Assembly: GCF_017348835.2 (NCBI RefSeq)
Contig: NZ_CP071375.1
Strand: one strand, 5' to 3'
DNA from: Escherichia coli
GTDB taxonomy: Bacteria; Pseudomonadota; Gammaproteobacteria; Enterobacterales; Enterobacteriaceae
Length of the DNA stretch: 64,000 nucleotides
Part shown: in pieces, positions 1,377 to 29,651 of the stretch
Layout of the letters: the number at the start of each line of letters is the position of its first letter
Position numbering within the stretch: the stretch's first letter is position 1
Notes under the pieces: model-generated
What the model saw: only the letters and a program-made list of their open reading frames with translations
Databases searched by the model: none
What the model was told of the DNA's origin: nothing
Made by a program: the position numbers and the translations under genes

Positions 1377-1772
1377 TTATTCTGAGGCAAAGGCATAGCC
1401 TTCATCTTCCCAGCCGGTTATCCCGCCGAGCATGATTTTAACCGGCTTTCCGAGTCGAGCCAGTTTGAGTGCCGCACGGTCTGCACCGTTACAATGTGGC
1501 CCCGCGCAATACACCACAAATAGCGTATCGTCGGGCCATTCGGCCATTCTTTCTGCGGTCATTTGCTTATGGGGTAAATGGAGAGCGCCTGGGATATGCC
1601 GACGCGCGAAGTCCTCTTCACGTCCAACCACATGAAGTAAAACGAAATCATCGCCAATATAAGCCAGAGAGTCATGAACATCGGCGCAATCTGTTTCGAC
1701 ACTCAAGCGCGCGAGAAAATGCGCCTCAGCAACTTCTGGCTTCGCTGTGGTAAATTCAGTGACATAACGCAT
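1377..1772 (-). CDS. Rhodanese-domain sulfurtransferase-like protein
   Basis: 131 aa ORF with rhodanese-like motifs including an active-site Cys context (VVYCAGPHCNGA). Confidence 0.65.
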   Translation of the reverse strand: MRYVTEFTTAKPEVAEAHFLARLSVETDCADVHDSLAYIGDDFVLLHVVGREEDFARRHIPGALHLPHKQMTAERMAEWPDDTLFVVYCAGPHCNGADRAALKLARLGKPVKIMLGGITGWEDEGYAFASE

Positions 1773-1845
1773 ATTGCTTTGTCCTTTTGGTTTGTTGTGT
1801 TAACAATAATGTAACTAATCTACCTTTCACTGACCGCCTCTCGAT

Positions 1846-2838
1846 ATGCCAGAAATGAGCAAAATGATGACAACGTTACAACGTCCGCTGGTCATTGCAC
1901 TGGCATATGACGGGCTATGTACTTTTGAATTTGGCGTTGCCGTTGAAATATTCGGCCTGCCACGACCGGAACTGGGCGATAATTGGTATCGTTTTGCTGT
2001 TGCTGCGGTAGAACCTGGTGCGCTACAAGCCACCGGGGGGATCCACGTGGTTGCAGATGGTGGACTGGAGTTATTGCCCAACGCCGATATGATTATTATT
2101 CCTGGCTGGCGCGGAATAGATGCCAAAGTGCCGGAGATGCTATGCCAGTCATTGCGCGAGGCACACCAGCGCGGTACTCGCCTGGTATCAATATGCTCTG
2201 GCGTGTTTGTCCTTGCTGCTGCGGGCCTTCTTCATCAGCGAAAAGCAACCACCCACTGGCGCTACACTGAACAACTCCAGCACCGTTACCCTTCAATCAG
2301 CGTAAGTGACAATGTGTTATATCAGGATGAAGGACAAGTGATGACCTCCGCCGGAAGCGCCGCGGGGATCGATCTGTGTTTACATATCGTGCGCAAAGAT
2401 TTTGGTCATGAGATTGCTAATAATGTCGCCCGGCGACTGGTCATTCAGCCACATCGCCAGGGGGATCAACCACAAAATCTGACGCGCCCAATGGCCTCAC
2501 CGCGTGAAAGCCAGACGTTAGGTGCCTTATTCGACTTTTTGCAGCAGAATCTGGCACAAACACATACTGTGTCTTCCCTCGCCGAACGGGTAAATATGAG
2601 TCCGCGCACTTTTTTAAGACGTTTTGAGGCGTTAACTGGCATGACGCCCGCCCGCTGGCTGCTCAATGAGCGCTTAATACGAGTACAGGATTATCTGCAA
2701 AATTCGGTTTTTAACATCGAGAAAATTGCCGAGCTGACGGGTTTTGGCAATTCAGCGTTATTGCGTCATCACTTTCACCAACGTTTTTTATTATCTCCTT
2801 CGCAATATCGCAAAAACAGCCGTTCCCCATCACAATAA
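1846..2838 (+). CDS. GlxA-type transcriptional regulator (DJ-1/PfpI N-domain + AraC-type HTH C-domain)
   Basis: 330 aa ORF; N-terminal DJ-1/PfpI-like region (ICSGVFVLAAAGLL) and C-terminal AraC-type HTH. Confidence 0.65.
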   Translation: MPEMSKMMTTLQRPLVIALAYDGLCTFEFGVAVEIFGLPRPELGDNWYRFAVAAVEPGALQATGGIHVVADGGLELLPNADMIIIPGWRGIDAKVPEMLCQSLREAHQRGTRLVSICSGVFVLAAAGLLHQRKATTHWRYTEQLQHRYPSISVSDNVLYQDEGQVMTSAGSAAGIDLCLHIVRKDFGHEIANNVARRLVIQPHRQGDQPQNLTRPMASPRESQTLGALFDFLQQNLAQTHTVSSLAERVNMSPRTFLRRFEALTGMTPARWLLNERLIRVQDYLQNSVFNIEKIAELTGFGNSALLRHHFHQRFLLSPSQYRKNSRSPSQ

Positions 2839-2843
2839 TCGCC

Positions 2844-2879
2844 TGATTCAGCCTTTGTTTAGATAACCTCTGCTAATAT
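2844..2879 (+). promoter_or_regulatory. Candidate PhoP-box-like direct repeat (TGATTCA N4 TTGTTTA) plus -10 TAATAT upstream of mgtS
   Basis: Direct repeat 12 bp upstream of a TAATAT hexamer, about 65 bp before the mgtS ATG. Confidence 0.3.
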
Positions 2880-2945
2880 CTTTCTCATTGAGATGAAAAT
2901 TAAGGTAAGCGAGGAAACACACCACACCATAAACGGAGGCAAATA

Positions 2946-3041
2946 ATGCTGGGTAATATGAATGTTTTTATGGCCGTACTGGGAATAATTTTATTTTCTG
3001 GTTTTCTGGCCGCGTATTTCAGCCACAAATGGGATGACTAA
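2946..3041 (+). CDS. mgtS: Small membrane protein MgtS (31 aa)
   Basis: Translation MLGNMNVFMAVLGIILFSGFLAAYFSHKWDD; below the 60 aa cut-off of the ORF track. Confidence 0.85.
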   Translation: MLGNMNVFMAVLGIILFSGFLAAYFSHKWDD

Positions 3042-3068
3042 TGAACGGAGATAATCCCTCACCTAACC

Positions 3069-3108
3069 GGCCCCTTGTTACAGTTGTGTACAAGGGGCCT
3101 GATTTTTA
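3069..3108 (+). terminator. Rho-independent terminator after mgtS
   Basis: 10 bp perfect stem (ggccccttgt / acaaggggcc) followed by a T-run. Confidence 0.7.
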
Positions 3109-3116
3109 TGACGGCG

Positions 3117-3230
3117 AAAAAAAACCGCCAGTAAACCGGCGGTGAATGCTTGCATGGATAGATTTGTGTTTTGCTTTTACGCTAACAGGCATTTTCCTGC
3201 ACTGATAACGGATCGTTGACACAGTAGCAT
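3117..3230 (-). ncRNA. mgrR: Candidate MgrR-like PhoP-regulated sRNA (ends approximate)
   Basis: Minus-strand hairpin plus U7 terminator at 3117-3143 and PhoP-box-like repeat at 3250-3266; exact MgrR sequence not recalled. Confidence 0.4.
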
Positions 3231-3249
3231 CAGTTTTCTCAATGAATGT

Positions 3250-3266
3250 TAAACGGAGCTTAAACT
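3250..3266 (-). promoter_or_regulatory. PhoP-box-like direct repeat (AGTTTA N5 CGTTTA) on minus strand
   Basis: Two hexamers separated by 5 nt, overlapping the dgcZ stop codon. Confidence 0.4.
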
Positions 3267-4150
3267 CGGTTAATCACATTTTGTTCGTCAATAAACATGC
3301 AGCGATTTCTTCCGGTTTGCTTACCCTCATACATTGCCCGGTCTGCTCTTCCAATGACCACATCCAGAGGCTCTTCAGGAAATGCGCGACTCACACCTGC
3401 TGTCACGGTAATGTTGATATGCCCTTCAGAATGTGTGATGGCATGGTTATCGACTAACTGGCAAATTCTGACACCTGCACGACATGCTTCTTCATCATTA
3501 GCCGCTTTAACAATAATGATAAATTCTTCGCCCCCGTAGCGATAAACCGTTTCGTAATCACGCGTCCAACTGGCTAAGTAAGTTGCCAGGGTGCGTAATA
3601 CTACATCGCCGATTAAATGCCCGTAGGTATCATTAACCAATTTAAATCGGTCAATATCCAACAACATTAAATAAAGATTCAGAGGATCAGTGTTGCGTAA
3701 CTGATGATCAAAGGATTCATCAAGAACCCGACGCCCCGGCAATCCCGTCAAAACATCCATATTGCTACGGATCGTCAGCAAATAAATTTTGTAATCGGTT
3801 AATGCCGCAGTAAAAGAAAGCAACCCCTCCTGAAAGGAGTCGAAATGCGCGTCCTGCCAGTGATTTTCAACAATAGCCAGCATTAATTCCCGACCACAGT
3901 TATGCATATGTTGATGGGCAGAATCCATTAGCCGAACGTAAGGTAATTCATCGTTATCGAGTGGCCCCAGATGATCAATCCACCGACCAAACTGGCACAG
4001 TCCATAAGAATGGTTATCCGTTATTTCTGGCTTACTGGCATCTCTCGCGACCACGCTGTGAAACATACTCACCAGCCACTGGTAGTGGGCATCGATAGCC
4101 TTATTGAGATTTAACAAGATGGCATCAATTTCCGTTGTCTTCTTGATCAT
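3260..4150 (-). CDS. dgcZ: Diguanylate cyclase DgcZ (zinc-sensing domain + GGDEF)
   Basis: ORF with GGEEF motif; start taken at MIKKTTEID. Confidence 0.85.
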   Translation of the reverse strand: MIKKTTEIDAILLNLNKAIDAHYQWLVSMFHSVVARDASKPEITDNHSYGLCQFGRWIDHLGPLDNDELPYVRLMDSAHQHMHNCGRELMLAIVENHWQDAHFDSFQEGLLSFTAALTDYKIYLLTIRSNMDVLTGLPGRRVLDESFDHQLRNTDPLNLYLMLLDIDRFKLVNDTYGHLIGDVVLRTLATYLASWTRDYETVYRYGGEEFIIIVKAANDEEACRAGVRICQLVDNHAITHSEGHINITVTAGVSRAFPEEPLDVVIGRADRAMYEGKQTGRNRCMFIDEQNVINRV

Positions 4151-14612: not shown

Positions 14613-15188
14613 CTACGGCAGTGCTGGCCATTCAATATCCTGTGCAGTTGACGTATCAACACGGTTCAGCAATACCCGATACTTTTTCCATGCTTCCAGC
14701 AACGAGATTTCTTCCTCCGTTGCAATTTCCAGATCTGCAGCATCCTGAAGCGGCGCAATATGCTCACTGGCTACCTGCATCAGGCTGTTTTTTGTTTCTT
14801 CCGCCTCCCGGATCCGGAACAGTTTTTCTGCTTCCGTATCCTTCACCCAGGCTGTGCCGTTCCACTTCTGATATTCCCCTCCCGGCGATAACCAGGTAAC
14901 ATTTTCCGGTAACGGACCGAGTTCAGAAATAAATAACGCGTCGCCGGAAGCCACGTCATAAACCGTTTTACCCCGATGATCTTCAACGAGATGCCACGAT
15001 GCCTCATCACTGTTGAAAACAGCCACGAAGCCTGCCGGAATATCTGGCGGTGCAATATCGATACTGTTTGCTGGCAGACCTGTATGAGGCGGAATATATG
15101 CGTCACCTTCACCAATAAATTCATTAGTTCCGGCCAGCAGATTATAAATTTTTATGGTCCGTGGTTGTTCACTCATTCTGAATGCCAT
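14613..15188 (-). CDS. tfaQ: Tail fibre assembly protein
   Basis: 191 aa; adjacent to tail-fibre C-terminal module. Confidence 0.75.
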
Positions 15189-19212: not shown

Positions 19213-19444
19213 TAAGCAAAAAAGCTCCCGAAGGAGCCTTCATTTTCACTTTCTTAAATCTAACGACAGATGGCTAACATTTAAGTATTGTGAAATATTA
19301 TCAAATGTAATCATCATTGATTTACAAAAGATACATTTTGCCCCGAAAGGATTTCTGTCAGAAACATCAAAAGATGATGTTCTATACTGAGAACCATGGC
19401 AACACGGGCATCTAAAGTGAATATGGTTTGTAATATTTTCTACC

Positions 19445-19657
19445 TCAAAGTGCCACTACATGAACAGCTGCAGGGCCTTTAGGTCCGTTCTCAATACCAA
19501 ATTCGACTTCCTGATTCTCAGTTAACGTTTTGAAATCGTTGCTCTGAATAGCTGAGAAATGCACAAACACATCTTTGCTACCATCTTTCGGCGTGATGAA
19601 ACCAAAACCTTTTTCAGGGTTAAACCATTTCACTAAACCAGTCATTTTGTTAGACAT
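19445..19657 (-). CDS. cspI: Cold-shock protein CspI
   Basis: 70 aa CSD protein ([21 protein letters not shown]...); long AT-rich leader. Confidence 0.85.
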
Positions 19658-20020
19658 CATTATTACCTTTTGAAGAAGTTAGCCCTTGGGCAGAATGGTC
19701 CGAAAAAAAATATCAGAGAGAAAAACCAACAAGGAAATCTCAAGAGGTACAAATAATAAAATTATAACAATGACTGCTTCAGATAATTTTGTAACAAACC
19801 AGAACACCATTAACGCATGATTAACCAACCATAGCAAGGATTACTTTTGTAAAGAAAAACACACGAATGAAACAATAGCTTTATTTATTAATAAAACGTG
19901 TCATTCTGTCTAATGACCTTTTATCTTACCCTTAAGATTTCAAGGATTTTGACTCATGGAAGAGTCCTTTTTATTTAAATTTCACATTCAGCGCTAAAAA
20001 TAATCCGATTTAATATTAAT

Positions 20021-22615: not shown

Positions 22616-22897
22616 TGAGATTGTGGTGCTTTTTGTGGGAGTCATCCACTTACGCACTTTGTTTTGCCATGCCAGCAGTTAGCTTCTGCTGTAAAACTAT
22701 TCATGCAGCAAACCTGCACTTCACCACAATGGTTAGCATACTTTTCCTGATTAAGATTTTGCCAAATATGCTGGCCATTGTTTCATGTATTGGACCTCCT
22801 TAATTTTCATTAAAGAGATCCAATATTCACTACTCTGTCCGTATCTCTACTCAGGCATCAGCCTTCTTCGTTATCGTATACAGACGAGCGATGAATT

Positions 22898-23110
22898 TTA
22901 ATCAGTAATGATGACATTTGCTGCTGCAGGACCTTTAGCACCACTCTCTATAGAGAAGGTAACCTTTTGACCTTCAAATAAGGTTCGATAATTATCATTC
23001 TGAATCGCAGAAAAATGCACAAACACATCTTTACTACCATCAACAGGAGAAATAAAGCCGAAACCTTTATCAGCGTTAAACCATTTTACTAAACCAGTCA
23101 TTTTATTTGA
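22898..23110 (-). CDS. cspB: Cold-shock protein CspB
   Basis: [23 protein letters not shown]... CSD protein. Confidence 0.85.
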
Positions 23111-23433
23111 CATTCTACATTCCTTAACTTGAGCCTTTCGGCATAAATGGTTTGCATAACAGAAACGACTTCGTACTTAATTGGAGAGACTCAAAGAAGG
23201 AATAAGTGAATAACACCTGAAATGAGAACTGCTTTAGTAAACTACTTCGTATATCGTCTGTTCTTCAAACCGACGCAGTCATTAACTCATAGTTGAACAT
23301 ATGAAGCAATGTTTATTTTAGACATCCAGCCACCTTCAACCCTATCAAAAAAGTAGTTTTCTCCAGGAACGTGTGTATGGTGCACCAGGTTATCAGTATT
23401 AAGGAGTTTTTCTGTCCCCTAAAATGACAGGAA

Positions 23434-24555: not shown

Positions 24556-25443
24556 TCAGGCTGCCAGATCATTATTTCCGATGGAAGCATAATAAGCTTT
24601 TTCTGCTTCTGCCGGAGGAATATGGCCCAGCCTTTCCAGCAATCGTCGATTGTTATACCAGTCCACCCACGTTAGTGTGGCCAGTTCCACTTCTGTCCGG
24701 TTTTTCCAGCTCTTACGGTGTATTACCTCCGCTTTGTAAAGACCATTGATGCTCTCAGCCATCGCGTTGTCATACGAGTCGCCAGTACTCCCTGTTGATG
24801 CCAGTAATCCGGCTTCCTTAAGCCGCTGCGTGTAGGCCAGCGATACATACTGAGAACCTTTATCACTGTGATGGATTGTGCCGGACGGCCGACGGGCCCA
24901 CAACGCCTGCTCCAGTGCATCCAGCACGAATGTTGTTTCCATGGATGATGAGACCTGCCATCCCACGATGTATCCGGCGAACACATCAATGATGAACGCC
25001 ACATAAACGAAGCCCTGCCATGTGCTTACCCAGGTAAAATCAGCCACCCACAACTGGTCTGGACGTTCTGCCACGAACTGACGGTTTACGCGGTCGCATG
25101 CGGCAACGGCTTTCCGGCTGACGGTAGTGCGGACCTTTTTACCCCGGAGAACACCGGCAAGTCCCATAACTGCCATGAGACGTGCCACAGTGCATCTGGC
25201 CACTCTGATACCTTCCCGTAACAACTGACGCCAGACTTTACGCACACCGTATACCTGGTGATTTTCATCGTATACGCGCTGTATCTCTTTCTTCAGCCAG
25301 TCATCGTGCTGCGCACGGGCACTGCGTTTATCCGGATGATGTCGCTGTTGCTGACAATGGTAATACGTTGACGGGGCAATATGCAGTTCGCTGCATACCG
25401 GTCCGACCCCGTACTGCTCACGCAGCTTATCCAGCAGTGGCAT
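24556..25443 (-). CDS. IS3-family transposase OrfB (DDE catalytic domain)
   Basis: 295 aa integrase-core ORF. Confidence 0.85.
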   Translation of the reverse strand: MPLLDKLREQYGVGPVCSELHIAPSTYYHCQQQRHHPDKRSARAQHDDWLKKEIQRVYDENHQVYGVRKVWRQLLREGIRVARCTVARLMAVMGLAGVLRGKKVRTTVSRKAVAACDRVNRQFVAERPDQLWVADFTWVSTWQGFVYVAFIIDVFAGYIVGWQVSSSMETTFVLDALEQALWARRPSGTIHHSDKGSQYVSLAYTQRLKEAGLLASTGSTGDSYDNAMAESINGLYKAEVIHRKSWKNRTEVELATLTWVDWYNNRRLLERLGHIPPAEAEKAYYASIGNNDLAA

Positions 25444-25769
25444 TATTTTTTCCAGAGGCGGTCGAACTCCGCCTTCGCAAAATAAGCGGAAGCCTGGCGA
25501 AGGATATCGTTACTGCGGCGCAGTTCACGATTTTCACGTTCCAGCTCTTTCAGACGCTGACGTTCAGCGGTGGTGAGTCCACCATCACCACTCCCGGTAT
25601 CCCGCTCATGCTGGCGAACCCAGACACGCAGAGTCTCCGGCGTACAGCCAATCTTTGGGGCAATGGAACAAATTGCCGCCCACTGTGAGTCATATTCATC
25701 CTGACTTTCCAGAACCATACGAATCGCCCGCTGACGGACTTCGGGGGAAAAACGAGTATTTTTAGTCAT
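25443..25769 (-). CDS. IS3-family transposase OrfA (HTH + leucine zipper)
   Basis: 108 aa, [33 protein letters not shown]... Confidence 0.85.
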
Positions 25770-27985: not shown

Positions 27986-29651
27986 GAAAAATCCCCCAGA
28001 GAATTGTCTGGGGACATTTTAGAATGGTTCAAAGGGGACATTACAGCTTGGTGTTAACAATAGCCTGCTTCTCCTTGCCTTTCGGCACGTAAGAGGCTAA
28101 CCTACATGTGTCTGGCATGAAATTGGCCTCAGATTAATGTTAAGCGTCTTGCAGGACGCGTAATGTTAACTGGGGCTTTTCTCTACCTGCCGTTGGTGTT
28201 CGTGCCCGAGGCAGATAGCCTCAAGCACCCGCAGTCATTCTACTTAACTAAGATTTCCCCGCAAACCGTTTTTGTCCAGCACAGTAAATATCCAACTAAA
28301 CCAATGGAGTTCGCTGTATTTACCGCCAGTATTCAATGCACATGACCGCCATGAACACCCCTAAAAAAAGGGCATTTATATATCCAAATATTAATATCAA
28401 AACATCAACTTTTTCCATATACCTTGCTGTGAAGATGATGGGCATACATGATGCGAACAACCAGAACGCAACAAACAAAAACTGCAATGCGTTTTTCATT
28501 ATTCCTCCTACAATCAATGTGCAATTACATTTAAACACACCTCAATTTGGCCGGACATATAAATATCTAAACCAGAAAAAATCACTTACATAGCGTTACA
28601 AACTCTTTAGTCTAAAGGTTCATCGTAAAACATTCCCCATACTTATCAGTCCGTTCCGCGCCAGGTAGCTCATTGCCTTATCTGGCAACCTGTAATCAGG
28701 TTTCCGCTTTTTCAGTTGGCTGGTCGTTTAACCGACATAGTTAACCCATTAATCTAGTTGCCGGATGTTGGTGGATTTTCGCGTTTTAGTTGTTCATAAA
28801 AGTGCACAGCTTTAACCAATTCTTCTGATGTAACCGGGACTGGTGAGGCAGTGAATAAGGCCTGAATTTGATAGTTCGGCCTGTCGTTACAATCCTCTTT
28901 TTTCGGTACATATTTCCAGTCACCAGACCACTACTTCCCCTGAAAGTCCGTAACGCCTTTTTTCACGTAGCGATATCGCCATGTCACTGGTTTTGCTTGC
29001 CCCGCCGTTTCATGCCCTTCCTGATAATTAATCTCGCTCATTCATCGCCCCACTCATCACAATATGCTTCGACCGGAGTTTTTCCCGCTTCATAGTCATC
29101 ACGCTAGGATTCGACATCAGCAGCACTTCCACCGCGTAACTCACCATAGTCCATTAATAGTTCATCCCGCTCTTCAAAACTGATGTTATATTTAGCTGAA
29201 CAAAAATCAGCCACTTTGTTCTTCCTCATCGTCTTTTATTTCGTGGTATGAGTAATTGCAGTAGTTAAAGAAAATTTCTTATGCTCCGTCATGAATTTCA
29301 TCAGGTGTTGCGTCATCGTCCACTTCGAATACATCCTCAAAATCTCCACCAGCTATTCCCGTTTCAATAATAATTTTGAACTTTCGCATTTCACTACCGC
29401 CCTTTCGGGCGGCCTCCTGATGTTCTGAGGGTGCAGAAATCCATCCGGTTAAGGATTAAGTTTTATTTACAGAACTGAATTTAATTATTCAGATATACGT
29501 ATCTGTAACCTTACGAATCTACTCACTGGATGCCTCTTTCATAAAAATAATCCAGTGGGTTTTATCGTTTTTTCCCTGTTCGTTGACAGATAACAGGCTT
29601 TCTATCTGTCAGTGCCAGAATCTGGCTTACCGGTATTTGCGTTTCATTCCA

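What the first reader, a model, noticed from the sequence alone, without database searches (positions are those of the whole stretch)
2844..3266. mgtS with a convergent candidate MgrR-like sRNA, both behind PhoP-box-like repeats
The 31 aa MgtS ORF is preceded by a PhoP-box-like direct repeat and followed by a strong terminator. On the opposite strand a second PhoP-box-like repeat (3250-3266) overlaps the dgcZ stop and lies ~110 nt upstream of a minus-strand hairpin plus U7 terminator (3117-3143), the right size for MgrR. The sRNA call is by position and signals only.
Basis: partly seen in the sequence, partly recalled or inferred. Interest (0 to 1): 0.35.

Follow-up and report, generated by a model that had tools for sequence, protein, structure and literature searches.

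The report
Known mgtS–MgrR low-magnesium gene pair

Summary
The window is E. coli, 100% identical to strain PE164.

- **mgtS:** 2946..3041(+) encodes the published 31-aa MgtS.
- **MgrR:** the minus-strand candidate is MgrR at 3117..3214(-), 98 nt. It differs from K-12 gene b4698 by one base (window 3211). It matches Rfam RF01407 (STnc560) at 282 bits.
- **Published landmarks:** G41, the U55–A68 seed and the 3' U8 tail all fall in register. The seed pairs across the eptB start codon.

1. The 5' end is 3214, not about 3230.
2. The tail is U8, not U7.
3. In 102 Enterobacteriaceae species, the conserved mgrR PhoP box is CGTTTA-N5-CATTGA at 3255..3239 (-41..-25). It lies 12 bp upstream of an extended -10 element. 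Its distal half lies in the last dgcZ codons and is not conserved.
4. A third known gene, mgtT (3041..3145), was missed. It runs through the mgtS terminator and overlaps the MgrR 3' end by 29 nt.

The mgtS PhoP box at 2845–2861 is conserved and canonically placed. PhoP-like motifs as such are no more frequent in the window than chance predicts.

The parts
2845..2861 (+). PhoP box of the mgtS promoter (GATTCA-N5-TGTTTA)
   Evidence: Pattern match with 2 mismatches. TTCA at 2847-2850 and TTTGTTTA at 2854-2861 are 74-100% conserved in 39 distinct promoter sequences. It lies 12 bp upstream of the -10 element. PhoP dependence is published.
2874..2879 (+). mgtS -10 hexamer TAATAT; the likely transcription start is A2887
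   Evidence: T2874 is 94%, A2875 100% and T2879 100% conserved; A2887 is 94% conserved. The start site is inferred, not mapped here.
2946..3041 (+). mgtS (yneM) CDS, a 31-aa inner-membrane small protein
   Evidence: ORF and translation. Annotated as mgtS in PE164 and K-12. The sequence is identical to K-12.
3041..3145 (+). mgtT CDS (34 aa). Its start overlaps the mgtS stop (TAATG), and it runs through the mgtS terminator into the MgrR terminator
   Evidence: Annotated as b4775. Found by ribosome profiling and confirmed by epitope tagging. Described as an mgtS-mgtT operon that depends on PhoQP. ORF length is not conserved outside Escherichia.
3069..3109 (+). Intrinsic terminator of mgtS: 13-bp stem at 3069-3099, then UGAUUUUUAU
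   Evidence: Fold gives dG -22.6 kcal/mol, z -4.8, and 0 of 200 shuffles fold as well. The simple terminator scan missed it because of a bulge and the loop limit. The ~190-nt yneM transcript in Salmonella is consistent with termination here.
3117..3214 (-). MgrR sRNA, 98 nt
   Evidence: Mapped from K-12 b4698. Rfam RF01407 scores 282 bits. The length, G41, U55-A68 and U8 all match PMC6239178. Present in 5,414 of 5,426 complete E. coli genomes.
3180..3210 (-). MgrR 5' stem-loop (nt 5-35)
   Evidence: MFE fold. A hairpin is kept in 93 species despite sequence turnover, with median dG -11.1 and median z -2.2. RNase probing is published.
3162..3178 (-). A-rich (ARN)n Hfq distal-face site (nt 37-53, AAAAGCAAAACACAAAU)
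   Evidence: Sequence. Described as an (ARN)5-like motif in a single-stranded region.
3147..3160 (-). MgrR seed, nt 55-68 (UAUCCAUGCAAGCA)
   Evidence: Unconstrained duplex search pairs nt 54-69 with eptB -7..+10 at -17.6 kcal/mol. The published seed is U55-A68. An 18-mer containing the seed is identical in about 106 Enterobacteriaceae species.
3117..3143 (-). MgrR Rho-independent terminator: stem 3143..3124 and U8 at 3124..3117
   Evidence: Terminator scan. Fold gives -13.7 kcal/mol. The stem covaries, with C-G to U-A and A-U to G-C exchanges.
3221..3229 (-). mgrR extended -10 element (TGcTACTGT)
   Evidence: TG at -15/-14 is 96-100% conserved, TA at -12/-11 is 97-100%, and T at -7 is 100%, in 102 species.
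3239..3255 (-). Conserved PhoP box of mgrR (CGTTTA-ACATT-CATTGA), at -41..-25
   Evidence: GTTTA at 3254..3250 is 97-100% conserved. TT at 3242..3241 is 100%, G3240 is 78% and A3239 is 88%, in 102 species. The box lies exactly 12 bp upstream of the -10 hexamer.
3261..3266 (-).
   Evidence: Only 18-40% conserved across species. It lies within dgcZ codons ...CGA GTT TAA. It is present in E. coli and E. whittamii.

Best explanation
This is the known PhoQ/PhoP-controlled convergent gene pair mgtS(-mgtT) and mgrR of E. coli.

Activation. At low Mg2+, phosphorylated PhoP binds a direct-repeat PhoP box that takes the place of the -35 element at each promoter. Each box lies 12 bp upstream of its -10 element: 2845-2861 for mgtS and 3255..3239 for mgrR. 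PhoP binding there activates transcription.

Plus strand. The mRNA encodes the 31-aa membrane protein MgtS. MgtS raises intracellular Mg2+ by increasing MgtA levels and by acting on PitA. The same mRNA, when it reads through its own terminator, also encodes the 34-aa MgtT.

Minus strand. The transcript is the 98-nt Hfq-dependent (class II) sRNA MgrR. It has a 5' hairpin, an A-rich ARN site, a single-stranded seed (nt 55-68) and a terminator hairpin with a U8 tail. The seed pairs across the start codon of eptB, and also with ygdQ and other mRNAs, and represses them. This changes LPS phosphoethanolamine modification.

Basis of each step:
- Shown here: identity, coordinates, structure, seed complementarity, and conservation of the promoter elements.
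- Taken from the literature: PhoP dependence, Hfq dependence, the targets and the physiology.
For: - Identity: the window is 100% identical to E. coli PE164 over 2700-3400. It is identical to K-12 from about 2865 to 3300 except at 3211.
- Annotation: K-12 carries mgtS b4599, mgtT b4775 and ncRNA mgrR b4698 in this order and orientation.
- RNA family: Rfam RF01407 STnc560 scores 281.9 bits, E 2e-65, over the full model. STnc560 is a ~90-nt RNA enriched 29-fold with Hfq, next to the yneM ORF in Salmonella.
- Register: the 98-nt sequence has G41, U55-A68 and a U8 tail as published.
- Fold: a 5' hairpin, an open centre and a terminator, z -2.9.
- Target pairing: the seed pairs with eptB -7..+10 at -17.6 kcal/mol. 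For nt 36-70, 56 of 2000 shuffles do as well.
- Promoter footprints: 102 species for mgrR and 39 distinct sequences for mgtS.
- Structure conservation: the terminator covaries, and the 5' hairpin is retained in 93 species.
- Literature: the genes are convergent and PhoPQ-dependent, PhoP directly activates both promoters, mgtS-mgtT is an operon, and eptB and ygdQ are targets.
Against: Nothing contradicts the identification. Caveats:
- No expression data exist for this strain.
- Moon & Gottesman 2009, which defined the mgrR start site and PhoP box, could not be read here. The 5' end therefore rests on the K-12 annotation and on the numbering used in PMC6239178.
- The generic sigma-70 scan finds no promoter in 2700-3400. 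That is expected for activator-dependent promoters that lack a -35 element.
- The PhoP motif count in the window is not above chance.
- The eptB pairing statistic is only moderately strong (p about 0.03).
Confidence: 0.97

Rival explanations
1. The functional PhoP site of mgrR is the box the first reader marked (AGTTTA-AGCTC-CGTTTA, 3266..3250, at -52..-36), not the conserved box at 3255..3239. Alternatively, in Escherichia all three tandem half-sites are used.
For: CGTTTAACATTCATTGA has about 4 mismatches by the same count (the score for this same sequence in L047 and L060). The three hexamers repeat with an exact 11-bp period. PhoP boxes one helical turn further upstream are known from Salmonella promoter surveys (my own knowledge, not checked here).
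Against: The distal half-site is only 18-40% conserved in 102 species. YGTTTA-N5-YRTTGA at -41..-25 is nearly invariant and lies at the canonical 12 bp from the -10 element. The distal hexamer lies in the last dgcZ codons (CGA GTT TAA), which could explain its sequence without any role for PhoP. dgcZ is the upstream neighbour only in Escherichia and Citrobacter.
Confidence: 0.2
2. The minus-strand element is only the 3' UTR and terminator of dgcZ, not an independently transcribed sRNA.
For: dgcZ runs in the same direction and ends at 3260, only 46 nt before the MgrR 5' end. No terminator lies between them. dgcZ transcripts therefore probably do end at the MgrR terminator.
Against: A complete promoter (PhoP box plus extended -10) is conserved in 102 species, and in most of them no GGDEF-domain gene was detected upstream. 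Promoter-only mgrR-lacZ fusions respond to PhoP, and MgrR is seen as a discrete band on Northern blots. Salmonella has a ~90-nt Hfq-bound RNA at this locus.
Confidence: 0.02
3. The real transcript is the 214-nt RNA delimited by the Rfam model (3248..3035, minus strand). It would read through the U8 terminator and the second hairpin into the end of mgtS.
For: The Rfam STnc560 model spans 214 nt, and the window matches it end to end.
Against: The model's 5' end (3248) lies inside the conserved PhoP box, upstream of the -10 element. An 8-bp GC-rich stem with a U8 tail ends the RNA at 3117. On the minus strand, hairpin 3099..3069 is followed by GGUUAGGUG with no U tract. Measured sizes are ~90 nt in Salmonella and 98 nt in E. 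coli. The Rfam boundaries appear to reflect the conserved intergenic block rather than mapped ends.
Confidence: 0.03

Closest known systems
MgrR sRNA of E. coli K-12 (b4698; Moon & Gottesman 2009)
   Same: Same position (between mgtT/mgtS and dgcZ), same strand and same 98-nt length. 97 of 98 nt are identical. The seed, ARN site, terminator and promoter are the same.
   Different: There is one substitution at MgrR nt 4 (C here, U in K-12; window 3211). It changes a predicted G-U pair at the base of the 5' hairpin to G-C. C is the commoner state across species (57 of 102) and is the Rfam consensus.
STnc560 (Rfam RF01407), the Salmonella Hfq-bound sRNA
   Same: Full-length match at 282 bits. The genomic context is the same (ydeI/ydeE region, next to the yneM ORF). 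The RNA is ~90 nt and strongly enriched with Hfq.
   Different: The Rfam model (214 nt) is much longer than the RNA. It includes promoter sequence and the mgtS terminator. No paper read here states that STnc560 and MgrR are the same RNA. The equivalence is inferred from position, size and sequence.
MgtS (YneM) and MgtT small proteins
   Same: mgtS and mgtT are identical to K-12 in sequence and in their TAATG overlap.
   Different: In this strain an ftrA-rhodanese block lies directly upstream of the mgtS promoter. In K-12 the upstream gene is ydeE. The mgtS PhoP box is TGTTTA here and CGTTTA in K-12.
Other PhoP-activated regulatory RNAs (for example PinT and AmgR of Salmonella; from my own knowledge, not tested here)
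   Same: Their transcription depends on PhoP binding at a PhoP box, and they act after transcription within the low-Mg2+ or virulence regulon.
   Different: They are unrelated in sequence and have different targets. AmgR is a cis-antisense RNA, whereas MgrR acts in trans through Hfq.

Membership tests
MgrR / STnc560 (RF01407) | Sequence and secondary-structure match to the family covariance model above its gathering score | tested here: met
   281.9 bits against a gathering score of 55, over model positions 1-214 of 214.
MgrR / STnc560 (RF01407) | Orthologous position and near-identity to the experimentally defined E. coli K-12 mgrR gene | tested here: met
   K-12 1622817..1622914 aligns without gaps to window 3117..3214(-), with 97 of 98 nt identical. 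The flanking genes are mgtT/mgtS and dgcZ.
MgrR / STnc560 (RF01407) | Hfq class II sRNA architecture: an internal single-stranded ARN motif plus a Rho-independent terminator with a long U tail | tested here: met
   AAAAGCAAAACACAAAU at nt 37-53 is unpaired in the MFE fold. The terminator is an 8-bp stem with a U8 tail. This matches the published description. Hfq binding itself was not tested here.
MgrR / STnc560 (RF01407) | Seed (nt 55-68) complementary to the eptB translation initiation region | tested here: met
   An unconstrained duplex search places MgrR nt 54-69 on eptB -7..+10 at -17.6 kcal/mol. For the nt 36-70 duplex (-20.5 kcal/mol), 56 of 2000 shuffles do as well. The eptB sequence came from K-12, not from this strain.
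MgrR / STnc560 (RF01407) | PhoP-box promoter | tested here: met
   YGTTTA-N5-YRTTGA at -41..-25 and an extended -10 element are nearly invariant in 102 species.
MgrR / STnc560 (RF01407) | PhoQ/PhoP- and low-Mg2+-dependent accumulation; Hfq-dependent stability; repression of eptB and ygdQ in vivo | not testable with these tools
   Known only from the literature for K-12.
MgtS (YneM) small protein | A 31-aa hydrophobic ORF with the conserved core GxILFSGFLAAYFSHKWDD, behind a PhoP-box promoter | tested here: met
   The translation is identical to K-12 MgtS. Orthologues were found in about 45 species loci.
MgtT small protein | A 34-aa ORF starting at the TAATG overlap with the mgtS stop | tested here: met
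   3041..3145 is identical to K-12 b4775. However, the ORF is 7-83 codons long in other genera, so it is a conserved protein only within Escherichia.
Canonical PhoP-activated promoter (PhoP box in place of the -35 element) | A direct repeat (T/G)GTTTA-N5-(T/G)GTTTA whose proximal end lies about 12 bp upstream of the -10 hexamer | tested here: met
For mgtS, the box ends at 2861 and the -10 element starts at 2874, a 12-bp gap. For mgrR, the box ends at 3239 and the -10 element starts at 3226, also a 12-bp gap.

The most novel reading that the evidence does not exclude
In Escherichia the two PhoP-induced transcripts may regulate each other through their 3' ends. To complete mgtT, the mgtS-mgtT message must read through its own strong intrinsic terminator (3069-3109). 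It then ends inside the MgrR terminator, which makes it antisense to at least 29 nt of MgrR (3117-3145). The mgtT reading frame is not conserved as a protein outside Escherichia. So the act of translating it, by ribosomes that melt the terminator hairpin, could matter more than its product. Such translation could set how much convergent transcription or antisense RNA reaches mgrR. A related unexcluded idea is that dgcZ transcripts, which have no terminator of their own before 3214, carry MgrR as their 3' end.
Probability: 0.1. Interest if true: 0.35.

Novelty: already known. Interest (0 to 1): 0.08.

Why it matters
As a discovery it matters little. MgrR, MgtS and MgtT are all published, and MgrR and MgtS are functionally characterised parts of the E. 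coli PhoQ/PhoP low-magnesium response.

The check still gives three practical results:
1. The sRNA can be placed exactly in a strain whose RefSeq-type annotation omits it. PGAP annotates mgtS, mgtT and dgcZ here but not mgrR, although the gene is present at >=99% identity in 5,408 of 5,426 complete E. coli genomes.
2. A footprint across 102 species shows which PhoP-box register is conserved. It also shows that a consensus match alone is unreliable, because the motif occurs at chance frequency in the window.
3. The comparison documents that mgtT is a lineage-restricted ORF laid over two terminators.

Tried and rejected
- **Primary paper unavailable.** Moon & Gottesman 2009 (PMC2841474) and Moon et al. 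2013 (PMC3765083) are not held. The published start site and PhoP box could not be read directly. I relied on the K-12 annotation and on the numbering in PMC6239178.
- **Full-length duplex search.** RNAduplex of whole MgrR against 210 nt of eptB gave a long, meaningless interaction no better than shuffles (107 of 500 as good). Restricting the search to the unstructured centre recovered the published seed.
- **Alignment-based fold.** One alignment of 29 diverse MgrR sequences recovered only the terminator, because the 5' hairpin varies in length. Folding each sequence on its own showed that the hairpin is retained.
- **Sigma-70 scan.** It found no promoter in 2700-3400. This is uninformative for activator-dependent promoters.
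- **Terminator scan.** It missed the mgtS terminator because the stem has a bulge.
- **Leader mini-ORF.** A 17-codon ORF in the mgtS leader (2893-2946) also ends in TAATG. It has an in-frame ATG only in E. coli-type sequences and was dropped as chance.
- **The 214-nt Rfam span.** I considered that it might be the real RNA and rejected this on the terminator, the -10 position and the published sizes.
- **Explicit equivalence.** I looked for a paper stating that STnc560 is MgrR. The four papers that mention STnc560 do not use the name MgrR.

Full report
**What is in the sequence**

The stretch 2844-3266 and its surroundings contain the following features.
- The 3' end of a 330-aa GlxA/AraC-type regulator gene lies at 1846..2838(+).
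- A 31-codon ORF at 2946..3041(+) encodes MLGNMNVFMAVLGIILFSGFLAAYFSHKWDD.
- A 34-codon ORF lies at 3041..3145(+). Its ATG overlaps the stop of the previous ORF (TAATG).
- A GGDEF-protein gene on the minus strand ends at 3260.
- Two hairpins lie between the convergent genes.
  - Hairpin A (3069-3099) is a 13-bp stem with dG -22.6 kcal/mol and z -4.8. On the plus strand it is followed by UGAUUUUUAU, which makes it a plus-strand intrinsic terminator. On the minus strand it has no U tract.
  - Hairpin B (3143..3124 on the minus strand) is followed by eight U (3124..3117), which makes it a minus-strand terminator.
The second overlaps the dgcZ stop codon at 3262..3260.

The only slip is that the tail is U8, not U7.

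**Is it more than chance?**

The PhoP consensus is weak evidence by itself. With up to two mismatches it hits 26 times in the 64-kb window, against 19.2 +/- 4.6 in shuffles. One of the best hits, with a single mismatch, is simply the MgrR terminator at 3121-3137. The case rests on identity, position and conservation, described below.

**Identity**

- The region is 100% identical to E. coli strain PE164. RefSeq annotates ftrA, mgtS, mgtT and dgcZ there.
- K-12 MG1655 annotates mgtS (b4599), mgtT (b4775), the ncRNA mgrR (b4698, 1622817..1622914, minus strand) and dgcZ, in the same order.
- A gap-free alignment maps mgrR onto window 3117..3214(-). The only difference between about 2865 and 3300 is at 3211, which is MgrR nt 4 (C here, U in K-12).
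- Rfam gives one hit in the region: RF01407 STnc560, 281.9 bits (gathering score 55), full length, minus strand.
- STnc560 was defined in Salmonella as a ~90-nt RNA enriched 29-fold in Hfq co-immunoprecipitation. It lies in the ydeI/ydeE intergenic region, next to the yneM ORF transcript (~190 nt).
- The 98-nt window sequence matches the published MgrR numbering: 98 nt long, G41, pairing region U55-A68 (UAUCCAUGCAAGCA), and a 3' U8 tail.
- The fold shows a 5' hairpin (nt 5-35), an open A-rich centre and the terminator (dG -25.9, z -2.9). This agrees with the published RNase probing.

**Function, as far as sequence can test it**

An unconstrained duplex search between the unstructured centre of MgrR and the K-12 eptB 5' region places MgrR nt 54-69 on eptB -7..+10, across the start codon, at -17.6 kcal/mol. 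For nt 36-70, 56 of 2000 shuffles do as well. This reproduces the published seed.

The literature read here supplies the rest:
- mgtS and mgrR are transcribed convergently and depend on PhoPQ at low Mg2+.
- PhoP directly activates both promoters, shown with promoter-lacZ fusions and Northern blots.
- MgrR is an Hfq-dependent class II sRNA that represses eptB and ygdQ.
- MgtS raises MgtA levels, and both MgtS and MgrR act on PitA.
- mgtT is translated, forms an operon with mgtS, is PhoQP-dependent, and has no known phenotype.

**Comparative evidence and a correction to the PhoP box**

One plain-DNA scan of species-representative genomes with the seed 18-mer returned 115 loci. About 106 are Enterobacteriaceae MgrR loci and the rest are chance hits.

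For mgrR, the promoter alignment of 102 species shows a sharp footprint:
- YGTTTA at window 3255..3250 (-41..-36), with GTTTA 97-100% conserved.
- YRTTGA at 3244..3239 (-30..-25), with TT 100% conserved.
- TG at -15/-14 (96-100%), TA at -12/-11 (97-100%) and T at -7 (100%).

The conserved PhoP box is therefore CGTTTA-ACATT-CATTGA at 3255..3239. It lies exactly 12 bp upstream of an extended -10 element (TGcTACTGT, 3229..3221), which is the canonical architecture.

Its distal hexamer AGTTTA (3266..3261) is 18-40% conserved and consists of the last dgcZ codons (CGA GTT TAA). dgcZ is the upstream neighbour only in Escherichia and Citrobacter. E. coli therefore has three tandem hexamers with an 11-bp period, of which the two proximal ones are the conserved box. 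Whether the third contributes in Escherichia remains open.

For mgtS, 39 distinct promoter sequences were aligned. It lies 12 bp from a conserved TAnTAT (2874-2879). A 94%-conserved A at 2887 is the likely start site (inferred).

The MgrR terminator stem covaries. A 5' hairpin is retained in 93 species despite sequence turnover (median dG -11.1, median z -2.2). mgtS lies convergent to mgrR in about 45 of the 106 species loci, so the pairing is common but not universal.

mgtT (3041..3145) runs straight through the mgtS terminator hairpin and ends inside the MgrR terminator. It overlaps MgrR by 29 nt (3117-3145). Outside Escherichia the frame is open for anything from 7 to 83 codons. Its apparently conserved residues (RPL...KGP) are the translation of the two arms of the terminator stem (GGCCCC / GGGGCC). 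mgtT therefore looks like a lineage-restricted ORF superimposed on RNA signals. This is the basis of the low-probability novel reading that translation-dependent read-through couples the two transcripts.

**Rivals**

- The Rfam span of 214 nt (3248..3035) is not the RNA. Its 5' end lies inside the PhoP box, the U8 terminator ends the RNA at 3117, and the measured sizes are ~90-98 nt.
- The element is not merely the dgcZ 3' UTR. It has its own conserved promoter in genera where no GGDEF-domain gene was detected upstream. dgcZ transcripts probably do terminate at the MgrR terminator, because no other terminator intervenes.

**Population view**

- The MgrR gene plus promoter (3117-3266) is present in 5,414 of 5,426 complete E. 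coli genomes, at >=99% identity in 5,408. The features listed under the match are only mgtT and dgcZ, so PGAP does not annotate the sRNA. This explains why it looked like an unannotated candidate.
- The ftrA-rhodanese block directly upstream of the mgtS promoter is present in only 381 genomes and is absent from K-12.

**Verdict**

The corrections are:
- MgrR is 3117..3214(-).
- The tail is U8.
- The conserved PhoP box is 3255..3239.
- mgtT is a third gene at the locus.

Interest is low (0.08).

Noticed in passing
window 3041-3145 (+): The annotated small-protein gene mgtT spans the mgtS intrinsic terminator (3069-3109) and ends inside the MgrR terminator, with a 29-nt antisense overlap at 3117-3145. 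Outside Escherichia the frame is open for only 7-83 codons. Its 'conserved' residues RPL...KGP are the two arms of the terminator stem.
   Followed up: partly
window 1377-2838: A rhodanese-like gene (1377..1772, minus strand) and ftrA (1846..2838, plus strand) lie between ydeE and mgtS. This block is in only 381 of 5,426 complete E. coli genomes and is absent from K-12. Similarity to K-12 resumes only about 7-14 bp upstream of the mgtS PhoP box.
   Followed up: partly
window 2902-2914 (+): The mgtS 5' leader contains a conserved block AAGGTAAGCGAGG. GAGG is 100% conserved and the rest 82-95% (except C2910, 33%) in 39 distinct sequences. The block lies about 30 nt upstream of the real Shine-Dalgarno sequence, with no start codon after it. 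Its role is unexplained; a protein or sRNA site, or a ribosome standby site, are possibilities.
   Followed up: no
window 3214-3262 (-): No terminator lies between the dgcZ stop (3260) and the MgrR +1 position (3214). dgcZ transcripts therefore probably run into mgrR and end at its terminator. dgcZ is the upstream neighbour of mgrR only in Escherichia and Citrobacter (14 loci).
   Followed up: partly
window 3121-3137 (-): The best PhoP-consensus match in the neighbourhood, GGTTTACTGGCGGTTTT with 1 mismatch, is just the MgrR terminator stem and U tail. It shows how unspecific the motif is.
   Followed up: yes
window 3117-3266; 5,414 RefSeq E. coli genomes: mgrR is present at >=99% identity in nearly every complete E. 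coli genome. The PGAP feature lists under the match show only mgtT and dgcZ. Only the curated K-12 record carries the ncRNA feature.
   Followed up: yes
L019:1436-1453 and 3030-3047 (Enterobacteriaceae bacterium RIT691): There are two MgrR copies 1.6 kb apart, with identical seed and terminator. One has the conserved PhoP-box promoter. The other has an unrelated upstream sequence and is the copy adjacent to mgtS.
   Followed up: partly
L009 (MAG labelled Caldithrix sp.), L117 (labelled Chryseobacterium sp. 18061), L015 (MAG 'Proteobacteria bacterium'): These contigs carry enterobacterial mgrR. L009 and L117 also carry mgtS, and in L009 mgtS and mgtT are identical to E. coli. The cause is probably contamination or mislabelled bins in the public assemblies.
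   Followed up: no
window 14647-14845, 19399-19815, 22882-23274, 25372-25488, 28059-28230 (all minus strand): Other Rfam matches above the gathering score elsewhere in the window: IS009 (221 bits), two cspA-type 5' UTR thermoregulators (110 and 159 bits), an ALIL frameshift pseudoknot of an IS3-family element (120 bits), and a sok antitoxin RNA of a hok/sok locus (100 bits).
   Followed up: no
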